Source: Crassostrea angulata
Lineage: Eukaryota
DNA: 55,623 nucleotides
Reading direction: 5' to 3'
Assembly: GCF_025612915.1 (NCBI RefSeq)
Contig: NC_069115.1
Coordinates: forward strand, 8,423,492 to 8,479,114
Below the pieces are notes generated by a model. It saw only the letters and a program-made list of their open reading frames with translations, did not search any database and was not told the origin of the DNA. Within the stretch, counting starts at the first letter, position 1. Each line of letters begins with the position of its first letter. Of this stretch, positions 3,591 through 52,673 are shown piece after piece. The position numbers and the translations under genes were made by a program.

Positions 3591-4907
3591 ATGGCCAGAA
3601 AAAAGGCAAAAACAAGGGGGAGCTACCAAAAAAATGACCCCTCAGTAATGGAGCAGGCGGTAAAAGCTGTACAATCGGGGGCGCTGTCTTTAAGAAAAGC
3701 CGCGGAGAAGTTTAATGTCCACAAGTCAACTTTGCACGACAGAGTGACGAAACGAGTTACTCTCGATGCAAAGCCTGGGAGAAAGCCTGTGCTCTCGAAC
3801 GAAATTGAAAAAAGAATTATAAAAAATGTTACTGAAAGTGCTGAGAAGGGTTTCGGTATATCAAGAAAACAACTCCTTCATCGAGCTGCTGTTCTTTGTA
3901 AAAGGAACAAAATTACAGGTTTCAAAAACTTCACACCATCTAAACACTGGTGGGAAGGTCTGAAAAAAAGGCACCCCGAGGTTGCGTTAAGGAAGCCAGA
4001 AAAGCTCGGCACAGTACGTGCAAGAATGCTTAATGGCTGTGTAGTAGAAAAGTATTTCGCAGACCTATCTAAAATAGTTGTTAACCCTGGTTTGCAAGAG
4101 AAACCAGAAAATATATGGAACTGCGACGAAACCGGCAAGCAGTTAGAGCACACGCCCGTCAATGTCATTGCCAGACGTGGCAGCAAATCTGTTGTTGGCC
4201 GCACTGGCAATGACAGGTCAAATATTACAATCATGGCCTGCGTAAATGCCACTGGGGATTCCATGCCCCCTATGCTTATAGTGAAGGGCAAGACTAAAAA
4301 GTCTTTATTCGGCTTCAACACAGCCGAGTCTCCCCAAAATTCAGTTTGGACATACAATGAAAAGGCTTGGATGAATGAGGAGTTGGGGGAACAGTGGTTT
4401 CGGGAGGTTTTTCTAGCGCACTGTGGCCCCGTGAGACCCCAACTTCTCATTCTGGATGGCCACGGATCTCACGAAACACTCGGCTTGCTAGAACTTGCAG
4501 CGGAGGAAAATATACATATATTAGCACTACCTCCCCATACCACTCACTTTTTGCAACCCCTAGACAGAACTGTATTCGGTCCGTTCAATAAGGCGTACAA
4601 CAGGGTTTGTTCTGAATTTTTGTCTGAAAATCCGAGTAACTTAATAAACAAATGGACGTTTCCAAAAATGTTTTCTAAAGCATGGGAGGCTGCAATTACG
4701 AAAGAAAACATCCAGAGTGGCTTCAGGGCCTGTGGGATCTACCCACTCAATCCCCATGCGATTCCGACATCGGCATATTTACCGAGCTCAGCTTACGAGA
4801 CAAGCATGCCCGTTGCGGAAACACCAGCAGCTTTAGGGAGACCGCCATCTCCAAGTGCCGCCGACAATGAAAATATTCCAAGCATCAATATGCCCATCCC
4901 GCCATAA
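3591..4907 (+). CDS. pogo/Tigger-type DDE transposase (N-terminal psq/CENP-B-like HTH, Tc5-like HTH, DDE_1 endonuclease domain)
   Basis: 438-aa ORF. HTH: SVMEQAVKAVQSGALSLRKAAEKFNVHKSTLHDRV. DDE_1 signatures: NIWNCDETG, LLILDGHGSHETL, ILALPPHTTHFLQPLDRTVFGPFNKAY. Sits inside the TIR-bounded element. Confidence 0.8.
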   Translation: MARKKAKTRGSYQKNDPSVMEQAVKAVQSGALSLRKAAEKFNVHKSTLHDRVTKRVTLDAKPGRKPVLSNEIEKRIIKNVTESAEKGFGISRKQLLHRAAVLCKRNKITGFKNFTPSKHWWEGLKKRHPEVALRKPEKLGTVRARMLNGCVVEKYFADLSKIVVNPGLQEKPENIWNCDETGKQLEHTPVNVIARRGSKSVVGRTGNDRSNITIMACVNATGDSMPPMLIVKGKTKKSLFGFNTAESPQNSVWTYNEKAWMNEELGEQWFREVFLAHCGPVRPQLLILDGHGSHETLGLLELAAEENIHILALPPHTTHFLQPLDRTVFGPFNKAYNRVCSEFLSENPSNLINKWTFPKMFSKAWEAAITKENIQSGFRACGIYPLNPHAIPTSAYLPSSAYETSMPVAETPAALGRPPSPSAADNENIPSINMPIPP

Positions 4908-12714: not shown

Positions 12715-13650
12715 CTCTATGTGTGAGAATAGAGAAGAAGATTTTTAAACATTATATGCATTAACGCTATATTGCCCCCTCCCCTCATGTCCTGAACCCC
12801 TGACCCAGGGGCCATGATTTCACAATTTAGGTAAAGGAGATTGTGGATATCATAACCATGTATTCAGTTTTTTGCCCACATGTGTGGGAGTAGAGAAGGT
12901 TTAAAACATTTTTACTATATGGCCATATTGGCCCCACCCTAGAGCCTGAACACCTAACAAAGGGGTCATGAATTACACAATTGTGGTAGAGGGCCGTCAT
13001 GGACATCATAACCATGCATTTAGTTTTTAACAAATATATATGGGAGTAGAGAAGAGGATTTTCCAAGATTTAATACATTTTTACTATATGGCCATATTGG
13101 CCCCACCCTCGAGCCAGAATCCCTGACCAAGGGGTCATGAATTTCACAATTTAGGTTGAGGGCTTCATGGACATCATTATCATGCATTTAGTTTTAAACA
13201 AACATATATGATAGTAGAGAAGAAGATTTTCTAAGATTTAATACATTTTTACTATTTGGCCATATTGGCCCCACCCTAGAGCCTGAACCCCTGATCCAGG
13301 GGTCATGAATTTCACATTGTGGTAGAGGGCTTCATGGGCATCATAATCATGCATTTAGTTTTTAAAAATATATATATGGTAGTTGAGAAGAACATTTTCT
13401 AAGATTTAACAGATTTGTACTATATTGCCATATTGGCCCCACCCTCGAGCCAGAACCCCTGACCCAGGGGCCATAAATTTCACAATTTTGGTAGAGGGCT
13501 TCATGGACATCATCACCATGCAAACAATTTTTTTTCTCACATGCGTGGGAGTAGATAATAAGATTTTTAAAAATTTGGCTTTTCTGCATATTTGGCCCCG
13601 CCCGTGGCACCCCAGGGGTGGTAGAGCCATGAATTTCACAATTTAGATTC
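12715..13650. repeat. Satellite-like tandem array, about 165-170 bp monomer x about 6
   Basis: Direct periodicity of ggccccaccct...ggggtcatgaatttcacaatt at about 12780, 12935, 13100, 13270, 13437, 13590. ORFs 13362..13781, 13406..13639 and 13425..13646 are artefacts of this repeat. Confidence 0.75.
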
Positions 13651-13806
13651 TTCTTACCAAAGTGGTGCTTCACACCAAAATGGTAACGATTGGCCTGGTA
13701 GTTTTTAGGAAGAAGTTTAAAATGTAAAATTGTTAACGCACGGCGCACGACGACGGACGAAGACCAATTGCAATAGGTCACCCGAGTGACTCAGGTGACC
13801 TAAAAA
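12715..13806 (+). mobile_element. pearl/Helentron-like HINE-type element (5' truncated) carrying a satellite array
   Basis: About six tandem monomers of about 165-170 bp (12715-13650) with core ggccccaccct(a/c)gagcc.gaa(c)ccctgacc(a/c)(a)ggggtcatgaatttcacaattt. Then a GACG-type microsatellite (cgcacggcgcacgacgacggacgaagac), the subterminal palindrome ggtcacccgagtgactcaggtgacc and terminus ctaaaaaa (13806). This is the same build as the elements at 14914-16697 and others. Confidence 0.55.
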
Positions 13807-14227
13807 ATGATTTCTGAAATTTCACTCATGAGACTCAGTAATCTACTGAGTCTTGTCAGTAGAACTGAAATTATTTGCATAAGGATTTGATGTAATACTA
13901 TACTTAAAACCTATTATGTACATTACTGTGTTCTACCGAGTGACTTAAATTTAGCGAAATTCACTGCAATCTCGGCAATCATTGGATCTTTAAAATTTAC
14001 AAGAATGCAATAGACTTGAAATATTTTGGTGCTTAAGTGCCGTAATGTATGAGGAATGTGAGAAAAGATTTCAAAGTTTTTAATGCAATCATCATTGATG
14101 GTCTGAAAAACTTAGAAATGTACAACATGATCATTTAAATGCAGCAGATATTATTCATACAGTGTGCTTTGATTTCTATGTCATGTGGACAGGGAGGTAT
14201 TACAACGGATACATCTTCTAGTGACTC

Positions 14228-14400
14228 GTTTATGAACAAACCAGTATGAATAAAGATATACAAACATTTAGTGCTTTTAACTTTATAATTACATGATGAT
14301 AATAAAATATATATCAACAAACCAGTATGAATAAAGATATACACACATTTAGTGCTTTTAACTTTATAATTACATTATGATAATAAAATATATATCTTAA
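14228..14400. repeat. Tandem duplication, about 88-bp unit x2
   Basis: The unit acaaaccagtatgaataaagatatacaaacatttagtgcttttaactttataattacatgatgataataaaatatatat is repeated with a few differences. Confidence 0.6.
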
Positions 14401-14913
14401 GTTTAATTCATAATAGCATATAGATCCGGATCTTTAGTGTTAAGTAATAAGTACACTGATATGTAAGTGTTTCAGTGTGCTTGTGTTAATTTTCATTATT
14501 GTATGCTTTTATATCTCTTTGAACAGCTAATGACGTCTTGAAGACCACGGCCATGTCTGATATGATTCATTTCAATTTAATATTTCACTGTATTAGTCAT
14601 TTATCAACGGGAGTCCTGTTATCATTGTCCATTCATTATTATATACTTCATCATTTGTCTTTAGTACGTTATATAGTTTATATCTACTATGCCACGTTAC
14701 AAGAGATAGCTGTCAGCTCCAGATTATTCACCTCTACGCGAGGAGAGAGGAGTACATTACCTGAACTATGCGAGAAGATGCACCTTCTCAAGAAGACTGA
14801 TCGAGCCTACTCGCCTTGGTTACGATTATGGAACTCTTCACAGAGATATTTGTGATGTTATCCCTGAATAATACCGCTTTGCACAAGATGGATATGACGT
14901 ACGCTGAATTGAG

Positions 14914-14947
<34 letters not shown>

Positions 14948-16533
14948 GAACAATAGGTATAATAAAATCAGCTTAATAGAGTCATAATTAATACAAACTA
15001 TCTGGACAATGTACAATAATACATGTAGATCCTGTATAAATAAAATCCATTTTTCCCCTGGATATTCTTGTTTATAATCATTGGTCCCTTTTCTAACAGG
15101 ATGATTTTATAGTCATATCATATGTTGAGTATTGCAGTTTTCAAAAAGATCCTTAACAATAGTTTATATATGGGATATAAACCTACATCAAACTCTGAAC
15201 CTTCTTGTAAAGCCAAAGAATTGTCCTGGGGCCAAAGTCTTAACAATTATAAAGAATCATCTGGCTGATTAGTTTCAGAGAAGAAGATTTTTAAAGATTT
15301 ACTCTATATATTCCTATGTTTAATTTCAACCCCCCATTGTGGCCCCACCCTACCCCCGGGGGTCATGATTTTCACAACTTTGTCAATTGAATCTACACTA
15401 CCAGAGGATGCTTCCACACAAGTTTCAGCTTTCCTGGCTGATTAGTTTCTGAGAAGAAGATTTTTAAAGATTTACTCTATATATTCATGTGTTAAACTTC
15501 AACCCCCCATTGTGGCCCCATCCTACCCCCGGGGGACTTAATTTTCACAACTTTGTATCTACACTACCTGAAGATGCTTCCACACAAGTTTCAGATTTTT
15601 AAAGATTTACTCTATATAATCATATGTAAAAGTTTAACACCCCCCCCCCCCCCATTGTGGCCCCATCCTACCCCCGGGGGTCATGATTTTCACAACTTTG
15701 TATCTACACTACCTGAGGATGCTTCCACACAAGTTTCAGCTTTCCTGGCTGATTAGTGTCTGAGAAGAAGATTTTTAAAGATTTACCCTGTATATTCCTA
15801 TGTAAAAGTTCGACCCCCATTGTGGTCCCACCCTATCCCCGGGGGTCATGATTTTCACAACTTTGAATCTACACTACCTGAAAATGCTGCCACACAAGTT
15901 TCAGCTTTCCTGGCTGATTAATTTCTGAGTAGAAGGTTTTTAAAGATTTACTCTATATATTTCTATGTTAAACTTCAATCCCCCATTGTGGCCCCACCCT
16001 ACCTCTGGGGGTCATGATTTTCACAACTTTAAATTTACATGACCTGAGGATGCTGCCACACAAGTGTTAGCTTTCCTGGCTGATTAGTTTCAGAAAAGAA
16101 GATTTTTAAAGATTTACTCTATATATTCATGTGTTAAACTTCGAACCCCCATTGTGGCCCCACCCTACCACCGGGGGTCATGATTTTCACAACTTTGTAC
16201 CTACACTACCTGAGGATGCTTCCACAAAAGTTTCAGCTTTCCTGGCTGAATAGTGTTTGAGAAGATTTTTAAAGATGTACTCTATATATTCCTATGTTAA
16301 ACTTCGACCCCCATTGTGGCCCCACCCTACTCCCGGGGGTCATGATTTTCACAAATTTGAATCTGAATCTACACTACCTGAGGATGCTTTCACATAAGTT
16401 TCAGCTTTTCTGGTCTTATGGTTCATGAGATTTTCGAAAATTTCTCGAAATTTTTCATAAATTCCTAATTATCTCCCTTTGCAAAAGGGCGTGATCCTTA
16501 ATTTTCACAACTTTGAATCCCCTTAAGCTAAAA

Positions 16534-16566
<33 letters not shown>

Positions 16567-16697
16567 AGTGGTTCTTGAGAAGATGTTGAAAATGTGAAAA
16601 GTTTACAGACAAGACGGACAGACAGACAGACGGACGACAGACAAAAATGTGATCAGAATAGCTCACTTGAACTTTCAGCTCGGTGAGCTAAAAAAAT
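14914..16697 (+). mobile_element. Complete pearl/Helentron-like HINE-type element with internal satellite array
   Basis: 5' end acaagaggcccatgggccacatc|gctcacctgagg (14914-14948). A ~340-bp head is >90% identical to 28176-28510. Satellite array 15255-16415 (about 7 monomers). Then a (GACA)n-like microsatellite gacaagacggacagacagacagacggacgacagac (16600-16644), the hairpin gctcacttgaactttcagctcggtgagc (16661-16688) whose 3' arm is the inverse of the 5' motif gctcacctgag, and terminus ctaaaaaaa. Confidence 0.7.
15255..16415. repeat. Satellite-like tandem array, about 165-bp monomer x about 7
   Basis: Monomer core ...cacaagtttcagctttcctggctgattagtttctgagaagaagatttttaaagatttactctatatattcctatgttaaacttcgacccccattgtggccccaccctacccccgggggtcatgattttcacaactttgaatctacactacctgaggatgcttcca... 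One monomer contains a C13 run (about 15640). ORF 15553..15756 is an artefact. Confidence 0.8.
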
Positions 16698-16815
16698 GGA
16701 ATGAAGCGCATGATATGCACTGAAAGTTGAGGACAATCTTCCATCACTTATCCGAAGCTCCAATCCAAGAAGAATAGCATCTACTGCTACAGCTGCTTCA
16801 TCGTCACCATCCGGC

Positions 16816-17360
16816 ATGTGTGTTGACATTCGTCTTCGAAACAATCCCAACTTGGATCTTGTGCGTGAAAACGCAGTAGAGTGTCTGCCTTTTTACAGCG
16901 AGGAATCTGTGATGGAGATTGCTCACATTGACTGTCCCCTCTCCATTGATCAGGAAGTAGCGGGGTCAGCCGTAACTCGTGTACCGATGGAGCCTGTGCC
17001 TTTAGTGAAGGAGGTTCTTACGGAGGAGGACGAGTGTGTTGGGAACAAGGAGTCTTCACCCGCAGTTGTATCAAAAAAGCGAAGATTACCCTTGCGACAT
17101 GTCCAGCAAAATGACTATTCCGAGACGGCTGACAAACGTGCTCGTTTATCCCGGAAATTCAGGTGATAGTTGTAAGGCCACGTTTGAACTTTCAGTGGTG
17201 CCCATTTCCTGGCTGCAATGTTAAGAACAGAAAGATCAAGCGTCATGTTCAACAGTCCCACCTTCCTCGGATATTTAGTGACGTGAGACCGATTCGCTCT
17301 ATGGAAGAGTTTAAGCTATGCAAACTAAAGCTCACAGCGCTAGAGTCTTTCTTTGGTTAG
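16816..17360 (+). other. Frameshifted ORF pair with a possible C2H2/BED-like zinc-finger motif; origin unclear
   Basis: ORFs 16816..17166 and 17163..17360 are contiguous with a +2 frame change. The second contains WCPFPGCNVKNRKIKRHVQQSH (C-x4-C-x9-H-x4-H). The first has an acidic patch followed by a KKRR basic stretch. No family assignment is possible from sequence alone. Confidence 0.25.
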
Positions 17361-19099
17361 GATTGTTCTCAGACACATTAGATTCTTCAGAAAACTACTC
17401 TTCATCCTGACTCAGTCGCGTGCTTTAAGAGATTATGTGACCATCAGAACTGGGAAGAACCTTCAGAAGTTTTTACTTTGGCTCCAGTCAACTCAACAGC
17501 TCTATTAACCCACTGGAGATGTTTAGTAGTACTAATTTCAGCTTTGCAGCCTGAATAGTTTGGCATGCATGGGCGTGTTACAGGTGACAGTCTTTCGGTT
17601 TCTGATGTGAAAGTTGCATGGATACAGGTGTCAACCGTGGATTCAGCACAGAAGCTTTCTATCAAACCAGAAAGAGAAGCGTTAACTCCAGTTAATTAAC
17701 ATTCCATATACGAAAAATACTGCATATTTCTGGGCAAAAAAAAGAACCCGAAAAAAAAATCCATGACGAAATAAAAGGAATTGAAGATCGTACAGAGAGA
17801 GAGAAAAAGAATCAAATGAAATCTCGAAGTATTCAGACTGTTTCAAAGAAAGAATACATTTAATGCGATGTTTTAGTGTACTTGATGTTAACTTACATGT
17901 ACGATGACCACGTGCACCTGACTTATAACTACTTTTTAAGGATATGTGAGCCTGACAAAACAAATCCACTGCGCAACTCGACCTGCCGAAAATAGGTCGT
18001 GGAAGTCGCGCTGTATAAATCAAAATATTTTATCAATATCAATAAACATACAATTGACTAAGATGTGTAATAATGAAGTCCAATTTTTAATTAATCGAAT
18101 TATTAATTCTATAAATCTTATAAATATCAAATATTATCATGAACGACATAGCCTTTCCGAATTACGATAATGTTTTGACAGAACACTAAGTTGAAAGCAG
18201 ATGATGAAGAAATATCGCAAGTTGGCATAAGGTAGGCAGGAAATGCAACCAGATACTCTAAAGTAACAGATGCACAATATCAGCGTTGGACCAGACCGAG
18301 TAGACCCCCTGATCACGATTACTTCTGCAATGAGCATGGTAGGTATAATTATTATTTGACATCCACCTTCCTTCGGAACCCAGAGACGTGTATTTATACT
18401 GTATGTGTACATGGCCATCTATGAAAACACGAAGTACAACAAATATTAAAACTTGTATATATTCTGATATTCATTTAACCATGCCATCAGTAAGCATTAA
18501 TAGTCTTTCAAATCTTTCACAATGTAGCTGCTAAATTGCAGTTCTACGGAATAATCGGACTGACGTATCGTGCCCAAATTTATTTATAATGGTCCTTAAA
18601 TTAAATTTTCTTTGCCATTGATCTGGGGACATAGTAGAGGACGCCTTCTCTATCACCATCGAGAACTTCAACCTGCCCAATCAAAGAGCTGCTAATCGTA
18701 ATAGACAGAAGCTAAGGCCTGCCAAGCCCAAGGACCTAATTAACCTTTGAAGTATGAGTACATTCATTAGAAAACAATGAGAGTGTTGACTTAAATGCAT
18801 CAGTATTTAATTATAGACAATTTGACGACATATTGGATTTTCATTTATATATCTACAAGTTTAAAGAACTTATTTACTATTGTATTTTCAGATTGACCAA
18901 CAGTTCCCTGGATGTGACGATTTCACAAAGGGTGACGTACAGGTAGACAACAACACCCTCCTTGCAACCCCCCCCCCCCCTCAATTAGAAGGAACTTCTA
19001 AAGACAGTGAAGAACTGTGTTCACATTTAAGATAATCCGTCAACCATCTGAACAGCTGCTTTCCATATATGGTATCAACCAGAAGGACGACTGCATGAA

Positions 19100-19830
19100 G
19101 TAAGTCCCTCTTTTGTTAGTCCTAATATATTTTTCCGCCACATGGATTGCTGTAAAGGAGGTGTTTTCAGACGCTCGGGTGCAAGGCAGCTCTTTCACAG
19201 GGGACAGGCGGTGATGAGGAAGTGTTGCGGACCTTGGACTAAAGACTGCATACGAGGAGTGACAGGAAGTTGATCGCCTCATCAGGAAACTGCTTGCCCT
19301 GCCATATCTACCACCAGGCCAGATTCGGGGAGACTTTGTCAACTTGCTACAGTTCGCCAACAAACACCTTTGAGGCAACTGTTGCAGTATGTGGAAGAAA
19401 CCTGGATCAACAGCGATGTACGTGGAATCTGCGAGGGGTCCGTGTTTCGACTGGCGGTTAGGACTGACAACGATGTTGAAGGTACATATATTCAGTATGA
19501 CCAATTTTTATGCAATTTTATAAATGTTTAACAAATTTTTCAATAATTAAAAAAAGAGGTTTGTGTACTATACCGGTATTTATTAAATCATGCTTTTTAG
19601 CATGTTGAAAATTTATTTATCATTTCAAAATTATGGATTTTTAAGGCTGACATCGTTGGCTGATTGGAAAGGCTGGGTAGCCCAAACTACAGTTCTACGC
19701 CCTGGTTCCCCTGCTGATGAAGGAAGCCAGCCAGTTAAGTGTCACTGCGCGGCTCGTGAACAACAGCTGACGCAATACCAGAAGTTGACGTATTGTCGGA
19801 TCCACGAGACACTCCATGAGTTCTAGTCGG
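19100..19830 (+). pseudogene. Mutator-like (MULE/IS256-superfamily) transposase C-terminal remnant with a possible SWIM-like zinc finger
   Basis: Three frames give VKEVFSDARVQGSSFHRGQAVMRKC (compare IS256/MULE avfP.a.iQrC..H..RN), then about 100 aa later YVEETWINSDVRGICEGSVFRLAVRTDNDVEG (compare YTTNaIEs.N), then LTSLADWKGWV ... CHCAAREQQLTQYQKLTYCRIHETLH (CxC-x15-CxxH, SWIM-like). Frameshifts and stops separate the pieces. The antisense ORF 19040..19504 is probably spurious. Confidence 0.4.
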
Positions 19831-21150
19831 AATACGAGGATAGGACAATCGCCATATTTCTGTTTCTCAGAAAAGTAGGACAAGTGTTCGCGCTAGGTGT
19901 CCCAAGACCAGACGAGTGATTGTGCATTACGCGTTCAATAAGATTCCGGAACTAGTGATTGTGTAAATTAGTGTTAGTAATATTTCTGGATTGCACTGAT
20001 GGGAGGACTGTAAATAATGTATTATTTTGATTTTCTTAAAGGATGAGATCTCATCCCATATATAATACCCATAGTGGTCCTTTAAGTAAAATTTGGGGTT
20101 GTTTTGCATGTGAATTGATATTTGTGTTATTAATTAAAGGATGAAGAATGTCAGACATCATTCAAGATACCCATTGCAGACTTGGACATCATTTTTCCGA
20201 TCACCTTCCACTAAAGAATGGATAGCTGATAGCACTACAGAGGGAGATGATACATCGGACAATGAAATTGTTGCTGTTCTTTAGTTTTTAAGGCTTGACT
20301 GTTGTAGTTGTTTAGTGCTTGTTCAATATTATGCCTTATGCTGTGTTCTCAATCCGCTAATGACACGTATTTAAATAAAAAGTTTATAAATGACATTATT
20401 TTCATTTTATTGTGTACATGGGTTGAGAGAGTTACATATCCAGTTAGTAGAAAGAAATATTGAGTTAAATCAGATTCACAATTTCTAACAGCACTGACAC
20501 CATGGTCAAAGTATATTATATAAATAACATGAAAATACTTGATTTTATTCATACAGATATTAAGAGCTCAAAACCATTTGATTTAAATTTTATTTATGAT
20601 TATTTGTTAACTTAGTAAAATCTAGGATTCTGTTAAAAAATGCCAAACTTTTTTTCCTTTTTCTATGTTATCTACAACATTAGAAATCGAATCTCTTGTT
20701 GTCACAGTAAAATCAACAGGGTTATACATCCAAATGAGCTTTATGTCACCAAATTTTTCTCACGAGGATTATATAACTCAAGAAATTCATTCATGTTGGG
20801 TTTTGTGCGAGTTTTCAAAGCCAGAAGTCCCAGAGGGGAAACCTCTACTTCAGGTGCTACCTTTACAAATAGCAGACTGTCAGTTAAAAGGAATTATATA
20901 TAAATATATTTTAGTTTTACTGTTTATATGTGACTTATTGATAAAAGTTTAACTCAATCTGAAATAAAGATTGTTTATCAGGTGTTCCATTTAGACAGTG
21001 CATTAAATGATTATGAAGCAAAATGACAATATAAATGTTCAAAGAGAAAAAACTGAAATAAATCTGCCAATATATCCAAAATATCTACTAGTAAAATGAA
21101 TATGGTCTTCGCCATGATAGCATTTTTCAAGTTATTTAAATATTACTTTT

Positions 21151-21316
21151 TAGGTTAGTTACTGACTCACTACAGCTCGGCGTTTTTCTCATGAGGATCG
21201 TGCAACTCAAGAAATTCCTTCACGTTGGGTTTAGTGCGAGTTTTCGAATCTTCGCCTCGTCATCTATGAGATTGATCAACCCAAAATATTTTCGTAGTGA
21301 GTCAGTAACTAACCTA
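21151..21316. mobile_element. Small TA-flanked foldback/MITE (Stowaway-like), about 162 bp
   Basis: 23-bp perfect TIR taggttagttactgactcactac (21151-21173) against gtagtgagtcagtaactaaccta (21294-21316). TA lies immediately outside both ends if the TIR is taken as ggttag.... An internal about 75-bp segment is also found at 20745-20825. Confidence 0.4.
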
Positions 21317-22087
21317 GCTAACCTCGTCAAATTTAACTCATTTAAACTCTTCAAAATTTTCAAACTCACCTTTCAAATACTCTTTTAAAATCTTTGCTTC
21401 ACCCCTGTTCACTTACAATATTTTTTTGCTATTCAATTTTAAATGTTTTCTCCCTTTCCTCTGCAGATTCGAGCAAATTTCGACGCTGCCATTTTGGTCT
21501 GGCCCAGACAAAACAATGTGACGTCAAAATTGTACGGGCAACTATTCTAATTTCAAAGAACTTCAAAAAGCAACTAGTCTAAATACTTTCAGAACTAGCG
21601 GCATGCTGTTTATTTATTAAATACTATGAAATGTCGAAATGAGTAAGCGAAGCGTCGGCCAATGACGGCCATATTGCCTAATATTATTTCTTACCGAATA
21701 AATATAGAGATATATGAGGCAATCATGTGCTATGTTTAAACCAATAAAAGTGTGACATTTCAGTCCAAGGGAAAACAATAATTCTTAGGAGCTCCTGCAT
21801 ATATACCTGCTCTTGTGGCTGCTTTACTAAGATGGATCACTCTAACATCAAGATTGGATTTCAAAGGAGGCAGAGCCTTTGATTGAATGGCAAACCATCT
21901 CACCGACAAAAATAAGAAAATATTGGTATGAAGGACTGTGAAACTGCTAGAATCGGTCAGTCTCTGATAGGGAATGTTTAATTATATTTTTTTTAAGAAC
22001 AATTAGATATTAGGATTACCTCCTTTACTTCTAGAATGTTAGCCAAATCTGTGTTGATAATATTTGCAACTGCTTTAATTTCTCTCC

Positions 22088-22697
22088 TTTTCACATTTTA
22101 ATGGCATTCATAATAGCTAACTGCAATTTGTGCGCAATGCATCTTACAGGAATAAGATGGGGATACTATCTAAGTAGTTGACCAGATATACCGCTGTTTT
22201 CCCCAGCATTACAGCAGCACCGTCAAAATTGCAGCAAACAATAGAGGGACCTGGTTAATCCGATTTGAGAGATTCTCTGGTACATTGTAAACCAAACAGT
22301 AGCAAGAGCATGTATCAAAAATTCCCTTCAAGACATCATGAGCAGGAGAGTGCTTTACTCTTTCATACTGGCTAATATTGTTATTGTGTGCCAGTTGGTT
22401 GTTAATACCGTACACACATTTTTCTTGCTCTTTGGTGCTAGTATCAGTGGATTCATCCGCAAAAATACTGTTAATAGACTTGGTAATAAGTCGTTAATGA
22501 GTTCTTTCTTAAAAGATCCATAAATACTTTTTATAAAGTTAACACACTAAAAACATAATTTCCCTCTCAATCAACACAAAGCTTATAATCTTACAGTCGA
22601 GTATAAAGTCTGTGAATGGCTTACCATGTTTGGCTATTTTATAATTTTTAAGCAATGGTAAATACGTTTTTCAGTTACTCTTACTGCTTCTCAGTTA
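22088..22697. repeat. Dispersed repeat R (about 610 bp), copy 1; unclassified interspersed element
   Basis: About 90% identical to 35517-35782 plus 36451-36785. Shares the small conserved ORF MSRRVLYSFILANIVIVCQLVVNTVHTFFLLFGASISGFIRKNTVNRLGNKSLMSSFLKDP. No TIRs or poly-A seen. Confidence 0.55.
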
Positions 22698-46659: not shown

Positions 46660-47800
46660 AGAAATATTTTAACCCATAGCCTTCAGGCGAATCCAATCCC
46701 TGATGGCACATAAGACCTGAAAGTACACGAAACTTCACTAAAACTGAGTTGGTCAAACTGCATTTAGGACAACATGTGGTATGACGCGATGAACGTGGTC
46801 AACGTAACGGCCACACTCTTCAACAGAGAGTGTTCCAAACGGAACAATTCAATACACTAGTTTTTCCTTCTTCGGTTTCACAAAACTTCTTAAAAAGGTC
46901 TTAATCGCAGACCAGACATTTTCTATGGGATTCAAATCCGGTGATAAAGCTGGGATAGTCATGGCACTCCCTGTCAGTTGGTTCTCCTCCATCCATTGAC
47001 GAATTGACTAACTCGTATGCTCTCTGTCGTCGTCCCACAATCATGGGTTATACTCCCTTTTTGAACAATCAAATTTATGTATATATATTTGGATTGTAAA
47101 AAAAAATGATTTGTTAAAAATCCTCTGCAATTTTTGTTGTTTTTTTTTCAGAGACAAAATGCCGAGAAAGGAAAACATATTTAAAATTCTATAATAGATA
47201 TGCATTTGAATCATCTTTGCATTTGACTTTTACATGTATACTGCTAATGGAATCTACATGTATATTCTTAACCAATGATGTGACTGATTTTTTAACATTT
47301 CAAAAAAGTTACTTTTTACCAGATATATTCAAAATCCATCTGGGTACTTGGCTGCAGTAAAGGGCACTAATAATCCGCAAGAATCTTCTAATAAATTTCC
47401 GAATCCACAATTACAGAAAATATACACACACTAGTTCTTCCTCTGTACGATAGTCAGCCCCACACATTCACCTTGAATGAGTGATTTTGTGTGGTTGCCT
47501 TAGTTGGAAGTTTATCAAAATTGGATCCATGCTTATAGAAAAACAGACGTCCGGAAGTAAACATCTCCACTGTAGACTCATCCACATCACTTGGCCATAC
47601 TACATGTCTTTTGTTGTCCAATTCAGCTTGCAGAGAATAAAGTTAATATTTCACAAACATCACTTATTTGGAGTAGTAATACGTTTCAGGATCTGTAGTA
47701 TTGCTGGTAGGCTTAGCGTTAGGATTAGAATTGCAAGAAACTACAATCAAACTGGTTACATGGTATGACTTATAAAATATAACAATATTATATACAGTAT
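46660..47800 (-). mobile_element. Tc1/mariner-superfamily transposase remnant (pseudogene), with about 300 bp of AT-rich non-coding sequence between the DDE halves
   Basis: Minus-strand translations: LSLPAILQILKRITTPNK (HTH-like, about 47700); VVWPSDVDESTVEMF ... KVNVWG (WSDESKF ... MVWG, first D, 47450-47640); then LWDDDREHTS, RSIRQWMEENQLTGSAMTIPALSPDLNPIENVWSAIKTFLRS, TLSVEECGRYVDHVHRVIPHVVLNAV (46660-47045; compare QDNDPKHTS ... LDWPAQSPDLNPIENLW ... ESMPRR..AVI). Multiple frameshifts. ORF 47481..47768 (+) is antisense to it. Confidence 0.55.
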
Positions 47801-48096
47801 AATGTTCAAAAAACATAAAACATAATCGTTAAAACGCCAAAAAATATTATTTCATTTAATAATATTAAAAATGACTGTCAATGTCTTGTCCTTGTGTTGT
47901 ATAGGTGTTAGGTATTTTAATTCTGGTTTGCACCTAGTGAAAGTCAGTCGCTGTAATCTGTATTGCAGATCTTCTTGTTTGGATTCTTTGATTTCTTGGA
48001 TGATCTAGCTCTTTCTACTCGATATTACTTCTTTAGTTTGTTTGTATTTGAAATTTCGAACGTTTTGTTTATTTTTTTAGCATTCTAATCGTTCAT

Positions 48097-48180
48097 TTTA
48101 AAATTGAAATAATTTCTGATAAAATGTTTCTTTTAATGTCATTTAATTTCTGATAAAATGTTTCATTTAATATCATTTAA
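48097..48180. repeat. Tandem duplication, about 37-bp unit x2
   Basis: gaaataatttctgataaaatgtttcttttaatgtcatttaatttctgataaaatgtttcatttaatatcatttaat. Confidence 0.5.
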
Positions 48181-49171
48181 TAAGTATTTGTATCTCATGT
48201 CGCTGGAAAAAGTTTTGGAGAAATTTTGAATTTTGAGAGGTTGGCGAAAAGTTTATAACTTCTATACACGTTTCTCCTCAAGCCAGGCAATCTAAGGGGG
48301 TGACCAAAAACTGCTTATTGTTTTCAGTCGCACTGTATTTTCATTATGTTGTTCAAAGATTCTGTTAAATAGCTGTTGGTGCAAAGTTCCTTCATAATTA
48401 AACCGGTAATGAGCTGCATGACGTGGCCTATTTAGTTCTGCTTCACCTAGTGCTTGAAATATGTTTCAAACCGAGGTTTTTATTTGTATTAAGCTTTATG
48501 AATCATCACTTTTTTGGTTAAACCACATCGTCCAAATAATATCTTTACTATATTTTCAGTGTTTTTCCTTAAAAATCTATTTTTTTTAAATCATTTGTAT
48601 TGTCTTTCATATGTACATGTACATAAAATGTTTATAATTGTTAAAATGCATTTTAAATGGCTTTGGTTATTGTCTTCTCCCCGTTACTTCCAACGATGAT
48701 GTGTTGTCTATCGTCTGTCTAATGTGTGAAAGGAAAGTAAAGTATGTGTCATAGTCACTGTCATTATGCAACATCATGGTTCCTGGCATTATTGAAAGAT
48801 CTCGCGTCTATCTTTTGAATAACTGACTTTACGTATATGTCAACTCCGAAACAAAGTAAGGATTCAAACCTACAATTGGTTCTCCATTACTACAGTTGGC
48901 TTTTTGATTTGTTCTGTCTTGTAAAGTATTATTAAAGATATCTTTTTTTTTCATTGTAAAAGTTATTTGTTGGATGTATATGAGATTCTGAAGGGAGCAT
49001 GATATTTGATGTGTTTCATCTGCAATGGCAACAAGTTTAAATATATTCGTTCTACCATTTTCCTAAATGCATGATTTTCCTCGTCCTTAGTTTAATACCA
49101 ATTTATTTCATGAAGAATTCTTAATCGTTTTAAGATGTTCTAATATTGTCCACGTCTTTTAGTCCGCCTCT

Positions 49172-49216
49172 TTCCTCTCTCTCTTTCTCTCTCTCTCTCT
49201 CTATATATATATCTAT
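49172..49216. repeat. Compound microsatellite (CT)n-(TA)n
   Basis: tttcctctctctctttctctctctctctctatatatatatcta. Confidence 0.7.
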
Positions 49217-49602
49217 AAACACCACCACCCCCTCCGAAAAAAAAAATCATTTTATAGTGTACTTATAATACCTTTAATACCTTGATGACAGACGGAAAAC
49301 ACAATTCAATAGCCTAGTGGAAAGATCTTTAACACCGCTAACAATTGGATAGAGACTCTCTAGTTTAAACATGATGATAATGTTCTTGGCAATCATGGTC
49401 CATGAAGACAAAAATAACTACTGTCTTAATGCTTTTTCTGACATCTTATCATAGTCTAATGATAAACACAACGAAGTTGCCTTATCTCTGTGCTTCTGTA
49501 TTTTACGCCATTGGATACCATCCCAAACGCTTGCAATTGAGCTATACCGACATGATTTAACTACACACAATGTTATTTAAGGTAAGTAAATTGTACTCTA
49601 CC

Positions 49603-49892
49603 CAGAGTTATCGTTCCTGCTTCGCTCCACTTATACCTCTGTTAACGTTTAAAAAGTAGTGCCACGAAATCATTGGTAATGGAGTATTACTCCGAGAAAT
49701 AGTTCATTGTTGACCTGATTTACCAATATATTCTTTTTATTTCAAAATTTTAGCAAGGCTTTAACATCGAAATGTAGACTGAATACATATAAAACTATAA
49801 TTTATAATATCATGATTGAAATGGGTTTTGCCAAGATTCTTGGCATTTAGACGTTAACAGAGGTGTTGTAGCGCAGCGTAATACGCCCTCTG
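49603..49892. repeat. Imperfect about 45-bp inverted repeat pair flanking about 200 bp; possible MITE
   Basis: Left cccagagttatcgttcctgcttcgctccacttatacctctgttaacgt (49604-49646). The reverse complement of 49851-49892 is accagagggcgtattacgctgcgctacaacacctctgttaacgtc. The two share a perfect 13-bp core (cctctgttaacgt / acgttaacagagg). No TSD identified. Confidence 0.3.
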
Positions 49893-51412
49893 GTGAGAGA
49901 TTGAAAAATAGCGTAAAGTTAAAAGTAAAATTAACTCGTTTCAAAAATAATTATTAAGTCGTACTTGAACACATTCGGATTTTCTGATTTAAGTCGTTTT
50001 AAGAATAGGAAATGTTTATGTTAATTTGGATTATGTGTAGTCGTACCAGAATTATTCCATTTTTTTCTTTTGAATAAGTTACCCTTGTTATTTGTGTAAG
50101 AACTTTGATTTTACAAGTACTTCAAGTTTTACTCTCGACATTAATGGAATACCCACTCGTTGCTTTTGCTCTAGTTTCATCTATTTCTTTTTTAAAAATT
50201 GATTATTTCTTGTTTTATTAACTATGAAGAATTATATTAATTATTTTTTTTTTACCTGGGTAACAGTTTTCAACAGATCCTGCTTTGTGCTATCACTGCT
50301 TTATATTTCTAAGGAATTAACACATTAGCAAACTGTTTTCTGCTACGACACTCATACCGTGTGTCTAAAACCTTCATTATTGTCCGAAATCAGAAGAATT
50401 TACTGTTTTGTGCGGTCTTGGGTCTTTTAAAATTAAATTTGCAATACAGTCGGTATTTTCCTATGTAAAAATTCAAACCGCCATCACGGTCCCGCCCTAC
50501 CACTAGGGACTGTGATTTTGCAAACTTTAATTTATACTACCCGAGGATGCCTCTACACAAGTTTAAGCTTTTCTGGCCAAAAAGTCTCTAAAAGAAGATT
50601 TTTAAAGATATTCTCTATATATTCCCAAGTAAAAATATATCCCCCATTGTGGCACCACCCTACCCCCAGGGACCATGATTTGAACAAACTAGAGTCTACA
50701 TTATCTGAGAATGGTTACACACCAATTTGAACTTTCTTGGGCAAATAGTTTTTAAAAGAATTTTTTTAAAAGATTTTTTCTATATATTCCTATGTTAAAC
50801 TTGATCCCCAATTTGTGGCCCCACCCTACCCCCGGGGACCATGAGTTGAAGAAACTTGAATCTACATTATCTGAGGATGGTTACACGCCAATTTGAGCTT
50901 TCTTGGCCAAACAGTTTATGAGAAGAAGATTTTTAAAGATTTTCTTTATATATTCCTATATAAAAATTTATCCCCCAATTGTGGCCCCAACCTAGCCATG
51001 GGGACCATGATTTGAGCAAACTTGAATCTACACTATCTGAGGATGCTTCCACTCAAATTTGAGTTTTCCTGGTCTAATAGTTTATGAGACGAAGATTTTT
51101 AAAGATTTTCTCTTTATATTCATATGTAAAACTTGATCCCCCAATTGTGGGCCCGCACTACCCCCGGTAACCATGATTTGAACAAACTTGAATCTACACT
51201 ATCTGAGGATGCCTCCATTTTAATTTGTGCTTTTCTGGCCTAATAGTTTTTGAGAAAAAGATTTTTAAAGATTTTCTCTATATATTCCTATGTAAAACTA
51301 GATCCCCCAATTGTGGCCCAATCCTACCCCCGGGGATCACTATTTGAACAAACTTGAATCTACACTATCTGAGGATGCTTCTACTCAAATTTGAGCTTTC
51401 CTGGCCTAATAC

Positions 51413-52210
51413 TTTTTGTCCCCCGCCGCAACGCGGAGCGGGGACATAGAAATGCCGGGCGTCCGTCCGTCCGTGGGTCCGTGTGTCCGTGCGTCCGTCC
51501 GTCACACTTTTTTGTAAGCGCTCTCATGCCTACAAATTTTGACGGATTTTCATTAAATTTATACCAAATGTTTATACCACTATTACCTTGGTCAAGTTCG
51601 AAAATCAGCATTGGTCGATACTTTTTGTTGGCGTTATGGGACTTTGACCACAATCATGACTCCGTTTTATCCAAAAATTGACCTTGTAAGCGCGCTCATG
51701 CCTACAAATTTTGACGGATTTTCATTAAAATTATACCAAATGTTTATACCACTATTACCTTGGTCAAGTTCGAAAATCAGCATTGGTCGATACTTTTTGT
51801 TGGCGTTATGGGACTTTGACCACAATAATGACTCCGTTTTATCCATAAATTGACCTTGTAAGTGCTCTCATGCCTACAAATTTTGACAGATTTTCATTAA
51901 ATTTATACCAAATGTTTATACTACTAATACTTTGGTCAAGTACAAAAATCAGCATTGGTCGATACTTTTTGTTGGAGTTATGGGACTTTGACCACAATCA
52001 TGACTCCGTTTTTTTCCAAAAATTGACCTTGTAAGGGCGCTCATGCCTACAAATATTGACGGATTTTCATTAAATTTATACCAAATGTTTATACCACTAA
52101 TACCTTGGTCAAGTTCCTAAATCAGCATTGGTCGATAGACTCGATACTAGTATACTGCTTGACCGGCGGGGGACCCTGGAATTCTATTCTTGTTGAGAAG
52201 AAGATTTTTG
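51413..52210 (-). mobile_element. Nested HINE-like element of a distinct family, inserted in opposite orientation into a T-run of the host satellite monomer
   Basis: Read on the minus strand: 5' acaagaatagaattccagg|gtcccccgccg (from 52210); about 3.6 copies of its own 172-bp tandem repeat (51514-52140); (GACG/GACGGAC)n (51463-51508); the hairpin gtccccgctccgcgttgcggcgggggac; and aaaaa (51413-51417). The 11-bp gtcccccgccg / cggcgggggac motifs at 51418-51428 and 52181-52191 are inverted. The host monomer sequence cctaatagttttt|gagaagaag is split around the element. Confidence 0.6.
51514..52140. repeat. Tandem repeat, 172-bp monomer x about 3.6 (internal to the nested element)
   Basis: gtaagcgctctcatgcctacaaattttgacggattttcattaaatttataccaaatgtttataccactattaccttggtcaagttcgaaaatcagcattggtcgatactttttgttggcgttatgggactttgaccacaatcatgactccgttttatccaaaaattgacctt repeats at 51514, 51686, 51858 and 52030. 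Confidence 0.8.
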
Positions 52211-52436
52211 AAGATTTTCTCTATATATTCCTATGTAAAACTTGATCCCCCAATTGTGGCCCCACCCTACCCCGGGGACAATGATTTGAACGAACTTGAA
52301 TCTACACTGCCTGATGATGCCTCCACACAAGTTTAAGCTTTTCAGGCCGAATAGTTTTTGAGAAGAAGATTTTTGAAAAAATACCTAAAAATTTACAAAA
52401 AATCTCAATTATCTCCCCTTTAAAGAGGACGTGGCA

Positions 52437-52468
<32 letters not shown>

Positions 52469-52673
52469 TAGTGGTGCTTTGTGCCAAATTTAGTTGAAAT
52501 CTGCCCAGTGGTTCTTGAGAAGAAGATAAAAATGTGAAAAGTTTATAACAACGACGACAACAACGACAGACAACGGACAAATTGTGATCAGAAAAGCTCA
52601 CTTCAGCCTTTGGCTCAGGTGAGCTAAAAATTCCACAACACTCCTAAGTATTCCTTCAACAAATTCTTTATAA

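What the first reader, a model, noticed from the sequence alone, without database searches (positions are those of the whole stretch)
12715..52630. Cluster of at least seven pearl/Helentron-like non-autonomous elements, each carrying its own satellite array, with a shared terminal architecture
Elements at 14914-16697, 28176-30283, 50455-52630 (with a nested copy at 51413-52210), 12715-13806, 31740-32115 and 40463-40925 share one modular build. From the 5' end: ACAAGA plus an about 20-bp leader; a TIR motif (e.g. gctcacctgag); a unique head; an array of 165-172-bp tandem repeats; a (GACA/GACG)n microsatellite; a subterminal hairpin whose 3' arm is the inverse of the 5' TIR motif; and finally CTAAAAA. 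The ACAAGA...TIR / hairpin...CTAAAAA pairing is seen independently in three sequence-unrelated families here (gctcacctgag; gtcccccgccg; the 40463 family). That argues it is a mechanistic requirement of transposition rather than shared ancestry of one copy. The '5' region / tandem-repeat core / tetranucleotide microsatellite / 3' region' layout is the one described for pearl elements of oysters, which were later interpreted as Helentron-associated HINEs that carry satellite DNA. Seven copies in 55 kb is a strong local enrichment and shows satellite monomers being seeded by transposition.
Basis: partly seen in the sequence, partly recalled or inferred. Interest (0 to 1): 0.8.

Follow-up and report, generated by a model that had tools for sequence, protein, structure and literature searches.

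The report
Known oyster Helentron satellite-carrying transposons (Cg_HINE)

Summary
Seven repeat-bearing elements lie at the stated places. Four of them (E1 14914-16696, E2 28176-30281, E4 about 31737-32114, E6 about 50450-52630) match published terminal sequences of Crassostrea gigas Helitron-N2_CGi/N2C_CGi at 89-97% (E2's 5' end matches only over its first 13 nt). The E1 and E2 arrays are 87-91% identical to published CL1 (Cg170-type) arrays.

E3 (about 12715-13807) is a diverged relative of the same group. E5 (40463-40928) and the nested E7 (51413-52193) are unrelated in sequence but built the same way.

Its "ACAAGA + leader" is the Helentron 3' end (subTIR, palindrome GGCCCATGGGCC, TCTTGT). 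Its "hairpin + CTAAAAA" is the 5' end (oligo-T, subTIR, IR). Three copies lack the 3' end, and E2 lacks the IR and microsatellite.

In 121 independent copies from metagenome contigs, similarity stops at TCTTGT and the next base is T in 88%. The nested copy gives an empty-site test: insertion inside an oligo-T run, with no target-site duplication.

The pearl/Helentron interpretation is supported and already published (Vojvoda Zeljko et al. 2020; Tunjić-Cvitanić et al. 2021). The local enrichment is modest (about 3-4 fold) and post hoc.

The parts
14914..16696 (-). E1: complete Cg_HINE_1-like element (Helitron-N2_CGi type). In canonical order on the minus strand: oligo-T 16696-16690; Box 1 (5' subTIR + IR hairpin) 16690-16648; (GTCY)n microsatellite about 16643-16606; Box 3 16604-16452; 166-bp Cg170-type array 16413-15261; 308-bp non-repeated segment 15260-14953; Box 2 14952-14914, made of 3' subTIR 14947-14937, palindrome GGCCCATGGGCC 14931-14920 and terminal TCTTGT 14919-14914.
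   Evidence: Box matches are (Box 1 89%, Box 2 97%, Box 3 87%). The array is 87-91% identical to published CL1 arrays. The 5' hairpin has z = -3.15. No TSD.
28176..30281 (-). E2: the same subfamily as E1, with 10.5 monomers. Box 2 lies at 28214-28176. The 5' end (oligo-T 30281-30277, then AGCTCACCTGAG) is fused directly to the array at about 30265. IR, microsatellite and Box 3 are missing, so this is an internal deletion derivative.
   Evidence: Box 2 97%; Box 1 matches over its first 13 nt only. The subTIR is a perfect 11 bp. It aligns with E1 from base 1 (14914/28176) at 84.7% over 1537 bp, and the flanks are unrelated.
12715..13807 (-). E3: diverged group-1 relative (Cg_HINE_4-like; the family is not sequence-verified). 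It has oligo-T + AGGTCACCTGAGTCAC-TCGG-GTGACC (subTIR + IR), a (GTCS)n microsatellite, a Box3 homologue and a 168-bp array. The canonical 3' end (subTIR, palindrome, TCTTGT) is absent.
   Evidence: The hairpin has z = -6.7. The pre-microsatellite segment is 70% identical to E1's Box 3 (z = 9.6). The same 5' terminus, with unrelated upstream flanks, occurs in L113, L015, L069, L100 and L055.
31737..32114 (-). E4: 3'-truncated N2-type copy. It has oligo-T, Box 1 at 32110-32068, a (GTCY)n microsatellite at 32055-32028, and then two tandem Box3-like units (32030-31894 and 31893-31737). There is no CL-type array.
   Evidence: Box 1 93%; Box 3 positions 1-75 at 89%. Unit 1 against unit 2 gives z = 15.6. 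The hairpin has z = -4.6.
40463..40928 (-). E5: short complete element of an unrelated family. It has oligo-T + ATGCCCC... (subTIR), a short microsatellite at about 40866-40852, about 2.2 diverged units of roughly 160 bp, the 3' subTIR GGGAGGGGACATAA, a small stem-loop TGTTTcaaAAACA and terminal TCTCTTGT.
   Evidence: subTIR pairing is 12/14 (5 of 300 shuffles score as high). The units are 72% identical. An independent relative in L083 starts its similarity at the T-run. The 5' hairpin is weak (z = -0.9).
50450..52630 (-). E6: 3'-truncated N2C-like copy. It has oligo-T 52630-52626, Box 1 at 52626-52583, a degenerate microsatellite, Box 3 at 52544-52406, and a 166-bp array at 52377-52194 and 51417-50450 that is interrupted by E7.
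   Evidence: Box 1 95%, Box 3 86%. The array is 75-82% identical to published CL1 arrays.
51413..52193 (+). E7: complete element of a third, unrelated family, nested in E6's array and in the opposite orientation. It has oligo-T 51413-51417 (mostly host DNA), 5' subTIR GTCCCCCGCCG + IR, a (CGTC)n microsatellite at 51455-51503, a 172-bp array with 3.6 units at 51512-52137, the 3' subTIR CGGCGGGGGAC, a small stem-loop GAATtctATTC and terminal TCTTGT ending at 52193.
   Evidence: The subTIR is a perfect 11 bp. Array monomers match at 94%. Empty-site test: sibling host monomers read TAATAG-TTTTT-GAGAA, while the interrupted one reads TAATAC-TTTTT[E7]TGAGAAG.

Best explanation
These are non-autonomous Helentron elements (HINEs). 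Their older name in oysters is pearl, and in Crassostrea gigas they are called Cg_HINE or Repbase Helitron-N*_CGi.

**Structure (canonical orientation).** A short oligo-T boundary is followed by an 11-12 bp 5' subterminal inverted repeat and a nearby complementary IR that closes a hairpin. Then come a (GTCY)n microsatellite, a spacer (Box 3 in the N2 group), an array of 160-172 bp tandem repeats, the 3' subTIR, a small palindrome and the terminal TCTTGT.

**Shown here.**
- The architecture is present in three unrelated families.
- Four copies are identical in sequence terms to published Cg_HINE/Helitron-N2 termini and CL1 monomers.
- The boundaries are exact and reproduced in more than 120 independent copies.
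- Insertion is into oligo-T, with T on both sides.
- There is no target-site duplication.
- One array-bearing element is inserted inside the array of another.
- There is no coding capacity.

**Inferred from what is known of Helitron/Helentron biology.**
- A Rep/helicase(/endonuclease) protein made by an autonomous Helentron elsewhere in the genome recognises the subTIR/hairpin ends.
- It nicks at the 5' T|T boundary and after the 3' CTTG(T).
- It moves the element by rolling-circle or peel-and-paste replication through a single-stranded intermediate.
- The internal satellite array is a passenger. It is copied to new sites with the element and then grows or shrinks by unequal exchange.
- Copies that keep the 5' end but lack the 3' end (E3, E4, E6) fit either premature termination of 5'-to-3' rolling-circle copying or later deletion.
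For: - **Published sequences.** Boxes 1, 2 and 3 map to the termini at 87-97% (E2's Box 1 only over its first 13 nt). Published CL1 arrays match the E1 and E2 arrays at 87-91%.
- **subTIRs.** They are perfect in E2 and E7 (1 of 300 shuffles reach the score) and 12/14 in E5.
- **5' hairpins.** z runs from -2.2 to -6.7 in six copies.
- **3' boundary.** In 121 independent copies conservation stops at TCTTGT. The next base is T in 88%, against 38% after background TCTTGT.
- **Complete copies elsewhere.** Twelve complete independent elements of 387-1070 bp all start with a T-run + AGCTCACCTGAG and end TCTTGT.
- **Other families.** E3-type and E5-type 5' ends recur with unrelated flanks.
- **Empty site.** The E7 test shows insertion inside a pre-existing T5 run.
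- **No TSD.** Shared words of 3-7 nt fall within the null distribution.
- **No Rep/helicase ORF.** No ORF of at least 110 aa has the size expected of a Rep/helicase, and the eight ORFs scanned against Pfam gave only a DDE_1 transposase.
- **Literature.** The defining HINE substructures, TT insertion, lack of TSD, frequent one-sided truncation and the re-classification of pearl are.
Against: - No autonomous partner is in the window. The literature could not link any C. gigas autonomous Helentron to Cg_HINEs, so trans-mobilisation is inferred.
- The 3' palindromes are short and are not thermodynamically distinguishable from shuffles.
- E5's 5' hairpin is weak.
- The families of E3, E5 and E7 could not be matched to named published entries. 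Table S2 of the 2020 paper is illegible, the xlsx is cut after CL1, and there were no hits in other texts.
- Whether the terminal Ts belong to the element or to the target cannot be resolved to the base from a single empty site.
Confidence: 0.93

Rival explanations
1. These are SINE-like retroposons. In the reader's orientation the elements end in an A-run, three copies look 5'-truncated, and insertion is at T-rich sites, as expected for LINE-mediated target-primed reverse transcription.
For: An RT-like ORF fragment exists at 1774-2157.
Against: - There are no target-site duplications in 7 window copies or 12 independent complete copies.
- The E7 empty site shows the T/A run pre-existed in the host monomer, so it is not a poly-A tail.
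- Subterminal inverted repeats and a conserved opposite terminus (TCTTGT followed by T in 88% of 121 copies) are not SINE features.
- Published Helitron-N2_CGi consensus termini coincide with the ends.
Confidence: 0.02
2. These are cut-and-paste MITEs, as pearl was originally classified, mobilised by a DDE transposase such as the pogo-like gene at 3591-4907.
For: Inverted repeats lie near both ends. A DDE_1/HTH_psq transposase ORF is present in the same window. Pearl was first described as a MITE.
Against: - There is no TSD. Pogo/Tc1 elements would give TA duplications.
- The inverted repeats are subterminal and the two termini are asymmetric: oligo-T + subTIR + IR on one side, subTIR + palindrome + TCTTGT on the other.
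- Insertion is into oligo-T.
- The literature has re-classified these elements as Helentron derivatives.
Confidence: 0.03
3. These are ordinary dispersed satellite arrays whose flanks resemble each other by chance or by segmental duplication, with no transposition involved.
For: E1 and E2 lie 11.5 kb apart in the same orientation. All six non-nested copies are on one strand, which could hint at local duplication.
Against: - Similarity between E1 and E2 starts exactly at the element end, and the flanks are unrelated.
- The same termini bound more than 120 copies in unrelated contexts.
- E7 interrupts a host monomer precisely.
Confidence: 0.01

Closest known systems
[quoted passage not shown] 2020, PMC7492417; Tunjić-Cvitanić et al. 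2021, PMC8268682)
   Same: - The terminal Box 1, Box 2 and internal Box 3 sequences are the same at 87-97% identity (E2's Box 1 only over its first 13 nt).
- The monomers are the same CL1/Cg170-type at 87-91%.
- The module order is the same.
- The GTCY microsatellite, oligo-T insertion and lack of TSD all agree.
   Different: There is no essential difference for E1, E2, E4 and E6. E2 is a deletion derivative without IR, microsatellite and Box 3. E4 carries duplicated Box3-like units instead of a CL array. E6's monomers are only 75-82% identical to CL1 arrays, so it is probably another sub-cluster (CL2, CL10 or CL13), not resolved here.
pearl elements of Crassostrea virginica / Anadara trapezia (Gaffney et al. 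2003, as summarised in PMC7492417)
   Same: The layout is the same: 5' region, core repeats of about 160 bp, tetranucleotide microsatellite, 3' region. The repeats are related to Cg170. Pearl was later re-categorised as a non-autonomous Helentron.
   Different: The species and sequences differ. No pearl sequence was available here, so only the architecture could be compared.
DINE-1 / HINE elements of Drosophila, mites and mosquitoes (Thomas, Vadnagara & Pritham 2014, PMC4067079)
   Same: subTIRs of 12-15 bp, an IR next to the 5' subTIR, a microsatellite, central repeats, a 3' stem-loop, TT target preference with variable terminal Ts, and no TSD.
   Different: There is no sequence similarity. 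The oyster elements carry longer satellite-type (nucleosome-length) monomers. Here the E7 empty site suggests that most of the 5' T-run is target DNA rather than element.
Canonical Helitrons
   Same: Asymmetric ends, a 3' palindrome close to the terminus, no TSD, and presumed rolling-circle transposition. The 3' terminal CTTG|T resembles CTRR|T.
   Different: The 5' end is not TC, the insertion is T|T rather than A|T, and subTIRs are present.

Membership tests
HINE (non-autonomous Helentron) | Subterminal inverted repeats of about 11-15 bp at both ends | tested here: met
   E2 and E7 have a perfect 11 bp (1 of 300 shuffles as good). E5 pairs 12/14. E1 pairs 7 bp plus further bases across one indel. 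The exact reverse-complement pairs are listed. E3, E4 and E6 lack the 3' end, so only the 5' arm can be seen.
HINE (non-autonomous Helentron) | Short IR complementary to the 5' subTIR, a few bases away (DINE-1/Cg_HINE type) | tested here: met
   DNA folds give z = -3.2 (E1), -4.6 (E4), -2.4 (E6), -6.7 (E3) and -2.2 (E7). E5 is weak (-0.9). The IR is absent in E2 because of a deletion.
HINE (non-autonomous Helentron) | Short palindrome / stem-loop between the 3' subTIR and the 3' terminus | tested here: inconclusive
   The N2 group has a perfect 12-nt palindrome, GGCCCATGGGCC. It was part of the exact search pattern used to collect the 121 independent copies, so its presence in them is not an independent test. 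E5 (TGTTTcaaAAACA) and E7 (GAATtctATTC) have only 4-5 bp stems. None of the three folds better than shuffles.
HINE (non-autonomous Helentron) | Microsatellite and central tandem repeats between the two end modules | tested here: met
   (GTCY)n or a related motif is present in six of seven copies. Arrays of 160-172 bp are present in six of seven (E4 has Box3-like units).
HINE (non-autonomous Helentron) | Insertion into TT / T-rich sites without target-site duplication | tested here: met
   The E7 empty site lies inside a T5 run. T follows the 3' end in 107 of 121 copies, against a 38% background. T-runs precede the 5' end. No TSD.
HINE (non-autonomous Helentron) | An autonomous Helentron partner (Rep/helicase/endonuclease) sharing the termini | not testable with these tools
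   No Rep/helicase-sized ORF is present in the window. The published work could not link Cg_HINEs to any of 10 autonomous C. gigas Helentrons.
[quoted passage not shown] | Sequence identity of the termini and monomers to the published consensus | tested here: met
   Box 2 matches 38/39 in E1 and E2. Box 1 matches at 89-95% in E1, E4 and E6, and over its first 13 nt only in E2. Box 3 matches at 86-89%. CL1 arrays match at 87-91%. Only 39 nt of published 3' sequence were available, not 60.
Cg_HINE_4 / Helitron-N2e_CGi (candidate for E3) | CL4 (SAT-2_CGi) 170-bp monomers and group-1-like flanks | not testable with these tools
   No CL4 or N2e sequence could be read. Indirect support: 168-bp monomers that share two motifs with CL1, a subTIR core TCACCTGAG shared with N2, and a Box 3 homologue.
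Canonical Helitron | 5' TC, 3' CTRR, insertion between A and T | tested here: not met
   The 5' end is oligo-T + AG/ATG/G, the 3' end is CTTGT, and the flanks are T...T.
MITE (cut-and-paste) | Terminal inverted repeats plus a fixed-length TSD | tested here: not met
   The inverted repeats are subterminal, the termini are asymmetric, and there is no TSD.

The most novel reading that the evidence does not exclude
Two details may go beyond what the papers I could read state.

1. **Box 3 is a diverged monomer.** Box 3 is the 156-bp 'unique' segment between the microsatellite and the array in Helitron-N2/N2C_CGi. It is colinear with, and a diverged copy of, the Cg170-type monomer. In E4 it is itself tandemly duplicated. 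This would favour the 'array born from intrinsic element sequence' scenario for the origin of the main oyster satellite family over the 'captured satellite' scenario.

2. **A shared 3' terminus.** Three sequence-unrelated HINE families in this window share the 3' terminus CTTGT followed by T. The published Box 5 family ends CTAGT, also followed by T in the one copy seen. This would mark a common Rep cleavage motif close to the canonical Helitron CTRR|T.
Probability: 0.35. Interest if true: 0.3.

Novelty: already known. Interest (0 to 1): 0.12.

Why it matters
These elements explain how satellite-type repeats (the Cg170/HindIII family and others) are scattered through oyster euchromatin. That question links transposons to satellite DNA evolution. 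The system has already been described genome-wide for C. gigas, so this window adds only a clean illustration. It shows one complete element, one deletion derivative, three one-sided truncations, a short element of a second family, and a third family nested inside another element's array. The nested copy supplies a built-in empty-site control. For annotation, the value is practical: about 8 kb (14%) of the window should be masked as Helentron/HINE on the strand and with the boundaries given here.

Tried and rejected
- **Table S2 of PMC7492417** (subTIR, IR and palindrome sequences of all 11 Cg_HINEs) is illegible in the held text. Its xlsx is cut after cluster CL1, so CL2-CL13 arrays could not be compared.
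- **Literal sequence probes** for the E3, E5 and E7 monomers found nothing in the supplements of PMC8268682. They found nothing relevant in the full-text library; the only two hits were unrelated base-editing papers. PMC11136912 has no held supplements.
- **A viral-contig scan** for the E7 5' terminus gave 0 hits.
- **BLAST of E5, E7 and the E1/E2 308-bp internal segment** against the 475 kb of metagenome-derived oyster DNA gave no hits. E7's family therefore rests on one copy plus its empty site.
- **A homology-free structural scan** (T-run + hairpin + microsatellite) was too strict and mostly re-found the N2 group. A looser microsatellite-anchored scan gave one E5 relative, in L083, which is cut by the contig end.
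- **The (GTCT)4 at 23834** was considered as an eighth copy and rejected, because it has no subTIR or T-run context.
- **A Box5-like match at 50146-50164** is weak (E = 0.001) and has no Box 4 partner.
- **Cg_HINE_9 for E7** was considered, on its 172/173-bp monomer, low divergence and perfect subTIR. It was not adopted, because the paper does not list Cg_HINE_9 among the elements with GTCY-type microsatellites.

Full report

Yes. Tandem Repeats Finder reports arrays at the following places:
- 12794-13597, period 168
- 15261-16413, period 166
- 28520-30260, period 166, 10.5 copies
- 50521-51417, period 166
- 51512-52137, period 172, 94% matches

A self-BLAST adds two diverged units of about 160 bp at 40513-40777 and shows which parts of the window are repeated.

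GCTCACCTGAG is at 14937 and 28199. Its exact reverse complement, followed by TAAAAA, is at 30265, 32098 and 52614. GGTGA[GC]CTAAAAA occurs five times on the + strand and never on the - strand. E1 (14914-) and E2 (28176-) align over 1537 bp at 84.7% identity, starting exactly at ACAAGA, and their flanks are unrelated.

**2. What is it?**

The literature describes this architecture for the Pacific oyster. Vojvoda Zeljko et al. 2020 (PMC7492417) define 11 Cg_HINE elements, which are non-autonomous Helentrons.
- The left flank holds the 5' subTIR, a complementary IR and a microsatellite (often GTCY).
- A variable spacer and a 140-180 bp tandem-repeat array follow.
- The right flank holds the 3' subTIR and a palindrome.
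- Insertion is into TT/T-rich sites without a target-site duplication.
- The same paper states that pearl was re-categorised as a non-autonomous Helentron and that its repeats resemble Cg170.

Exact 21-23-mers from this window's 166-bp monomers occur hundreds of times in that paper's table of CL1 arrays. Three of those published arrays align to the E1 and E2 arrays at 87-91% identity, and to the E6 array at 75-82%.

Table S3 of Tunjić-Cvitanić et al. 2021 (PMC8268682) prints the conserved ends of Repbase Helitron-N2_CGi/N2C_CGi. They map on the minus strand of the window:

| Box | Positions (identity) |
|---|---|
| Box 1 (5' end) | 52626-52583 (95%); 32110-32068 (93%); 16690-16648 (89%); 30277-30265 (first 13 nt only) |
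| Box 2 (3' end, ...GGCCCATGGGCCTCTTGT) | 14952-14914 and 28214-28176 (97%) |
| Box 3 | 16604-16452; 52544-52406; 32025-31951 |

E1, E2, E4 and E6 are therefore members of that published family. The window is C. gigas DNA or DNA of a very close relative.

**3.

- Its "ACAAGA + about 20-bp leader + TIR" is the Helentron 3' end read backwards: 3' subTIR CTCAGGTGAGC, spacer, perfect palindrome GGCCCATGGGCC, then TCTTGT.
- Its "hairpin + CTAAAAA" is the 5' end: oligo-T, AG, 5' subTIR and IR.

Other corrections:
- Only E1 is complete in every module.
- E2 keeps both termini, but the 5' subTIR is fused directly to the array, so IR, microsatellite and Box 3 are deleted.
- E3, E4 and E6 keep the 5' end but lack the whole 3' end.
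- E4 has no CL-type array, only two tandem Box3-like units (z = 15.6).
- E7 is inverted relative to the others and spans 51413-52193, not 51413-52210.
- E5 ends CATAAAAA.

One-sided truncation is described in the literature as frequent.

**4. Structural tests**

- subTIR pairing is a perfect 11 bp in E2 and E7 (1 of 300 shuffles as good). It is 12/14 in E5 and 7 bp plus an indel in E1.
- The 5' subTIR-IR hairpins fold better than shuffles in E1, E3, E4, E6 and E7 (z from -2.2 to -6.7). E5's does not (z = -0.9).
- The small 3' stem-loops are not thermodynamically distinguishable from shuffles.
- E3's pre-microsatellite segment is homologous to Box 3 (70% identity, z = 9.6), so E3 belongs to the same broad group. 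It is Cg_HINE_4-like, but that family could not be verified by sequence.
- E5 and E7 show no similarity to that group (z < 1).

**5.

One scan of public metagenome contigs for the last 23 nt of Box 2 returned at least 120 contigs (475 kb) that evidently carry oyster host DNA.
- **3' boundary.** In 121 copies, conservation ends at TCTTGT. The next base is T in 88% and the second in 65%, after which composition is background. T follows other TCTTGT hexamers in only 38% of cases.
- **Complete elements.** Twelve complete elements (387-1070 bp) start with a T-run of 3-9 followed by AGCTCACCTGAG, and end TCTTGT.
- **E3 family.** E3-type 5' ends (T-run + AGGTCACCTGAGTCAC...GGTGACC + TATTGC + microsatellite) recur in five loci with unrelated upstream flanks.
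- **E5 family.** An E5 relative in L083 begins its similarity at the T-run.
- **No TSD.** No target-site duplication is seen around 7 window copies or 12 independent copies.

**6. Built-in empty site**

E7 interrupts a monomer of E6's array. Sibling monomers read CTGGCCTAATAG-TTTTT-GAGAA. The interrupted one reads CTGGCCTAATAC-TTTTT[GTCCCC...TCTTGT]TGAGAAG.

Removing E7 restores the monomer with one T to spare. The insertion therefore lay within a pre-existing oligo-T run, between two Ts, without duplication. The exact base cannot be fixed from one site: the element could be T+G...TCTTGT or TT+G...TCTTG.

**7. Mechanism**

Shown:
- the architecture
- the boundaries
- the target preference
- the absence of a TSD
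- the nesting of one element inside another
- the lack of coding capacity

Inferred from Helitron/Helentron biology:
- mobilisation in trans by a Helentron Rep/helicase(/endonuclease) that recognises the subTIR/hairpin ends
- copying from 5' to 3' by a rolling-circle mechanism
- integration into oligo-T
- the array travelling as a passenger and then changing length by unequal exchange

Three of seven copies lack the 3' end and none lacks the 5' end. That fits premature termination, but later deletion explains it equally well and the numbers are small.

**8. Rivals**

- **SINE-like retroposon.** It is rejected because there are no TSDs and the T-run pre-exists in the host.
- **Cut-and-paste MITE.** It is rejected because there is no TSD and the ends are subterminal and asymmetric. 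The pogo-like DDE_1 ORF at 3591-4907 is an unrelated neighbour.
- **Coincidental satellite flanks.** This is rejected by the boundary data.

**9. Enrichment**

The 2020 survey found 14,591 arrays (100-500 bp units, at least 2 copies) in 559 Mb. That gives 1.45 expected per 55.6 kb, against 5 detected by TRF here. The Poisson p is about 0.016, or about 0.06 if the nested copy is not counted as independent.

The window holds roughly 17-24 Cg170-type monomers, against about 3 expected from the 32,066 monomers reported genome-wide.

This is a modest excess, judged post hoc on a window flagged because of it, and measured against an old assembly that under-represents repeats. "Strong local enrichment" is not established.

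**10. Novelty and score**

The finding is correct and well read, but it re-describes a published system. The relevant papers are:
- pearl, 2003
- HINE/Helentron, 2014
- Cg_HINE, 2020
- Boxes 1-5, 2021

Two small points may go beyond the papers I could read.
- Box 3 is colinear with a Cg170-type monomer (published against published, z = 6.5; 65% identity in E1). It is tandemly duplicated in E4. This favours an intrinsic origin of the array.
- Three unrelated families share the terminus CTTGT followed by T. The published Box 5 family has CTAGT, followed by T in the one copy seen.

Neither point changes the classification.

Noticed in passing
window 16452-16604 (Box 3 of E1), 52406-52544 (E6), 31737-32030 (E4): The 'unique' Box 3 segment between the microsatellite and the array is a diverged, colinear copy of the Cg170-type monomer. 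Published Box 3 against a published CL1 monomer gives z = 6.5, and the E1 copy is 65% identical. In E4 it is itself tandemly duplicated (z = 15.6). This suggests the array arose from intrinsic element sequence.
   Followed up: partly
window 3591-4907 (+), 1774-2157 (+): An intact-looking 438-aa pogo/Tigger-type transposase ORF has Pfam DDE_1 (6e-33), HTH_psq and HTH_Tnp_Tc5. Just upstream is a reverse-transcriptase-like ORF fragment that has no Pfam hit. Both are unrelated to the HINE copies.
   Followed up: partly
window 22087-22697 vs 35517-35782 + 36449-36785: Two copies (84-88% identity) of another, unclassified interspersed repeat. The second copy is split by an insert of about 665 bp (35783-36448) that begins with a long hairpin (about 35785-35915). 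This is a second case of nested insertion.
   Followed up: no
window 12715-52630, all HINE copies: All six non-nested copies lie in the same orientation, with the canonical strand being the window's minus strand. The two-sided chance of this is about 0.03. It is possibly orientation selection inside a host gene or local transposition. No host gene was identified.
   Followed up: no
window 30264-30281: In E2 the 5' subTIR (AGCTCACCTGAG) is fused directly to an array monomer, deleting the IR, the microsatellite and Box 3. If such copies are still mobile, the IR and microsatellite would be dispensable in cis.
   Followed up: no
window 50146-50175 (+): A weak match (E = 0.001) to published Box 5, the 3' end of the Helitron-N3/N4 group. 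It ends ...CTCTAGT followed by T, and no Box 4 partner was found. It is possibly a relic of another Helentron family next to E6's truncated end.
   Followed up: partly
window 464-831, 14231-14396, 37849-37991, 41439-41837, 39408-39496: Several small local tandem or near-tandem duplications lie outside HINE copies: 2 x 185 bp, 2 x 81 bp, 2 x 70 bp, 144 bp twice and 32 bp x 2.8.
   Followed up: no
loci L001-L120 (ENA metagenome sets OBLZ01..., OCZB01...): These 'metagenome' contigs contain abundant oyster host DNA. At least 120 contigs carry the exact 23-nt 3' end of Helitron-N2_CGi. The commonest variant upstream of the subTIR (AACTGTTTTCTCAGGTGAGC) differs from the E1/E2 subfamily (CTATTGTTCCTCAGGTGAGC). 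The 308-bp internal segment of E1/E2 is absent from all 475 kb.
   Followed up: partly
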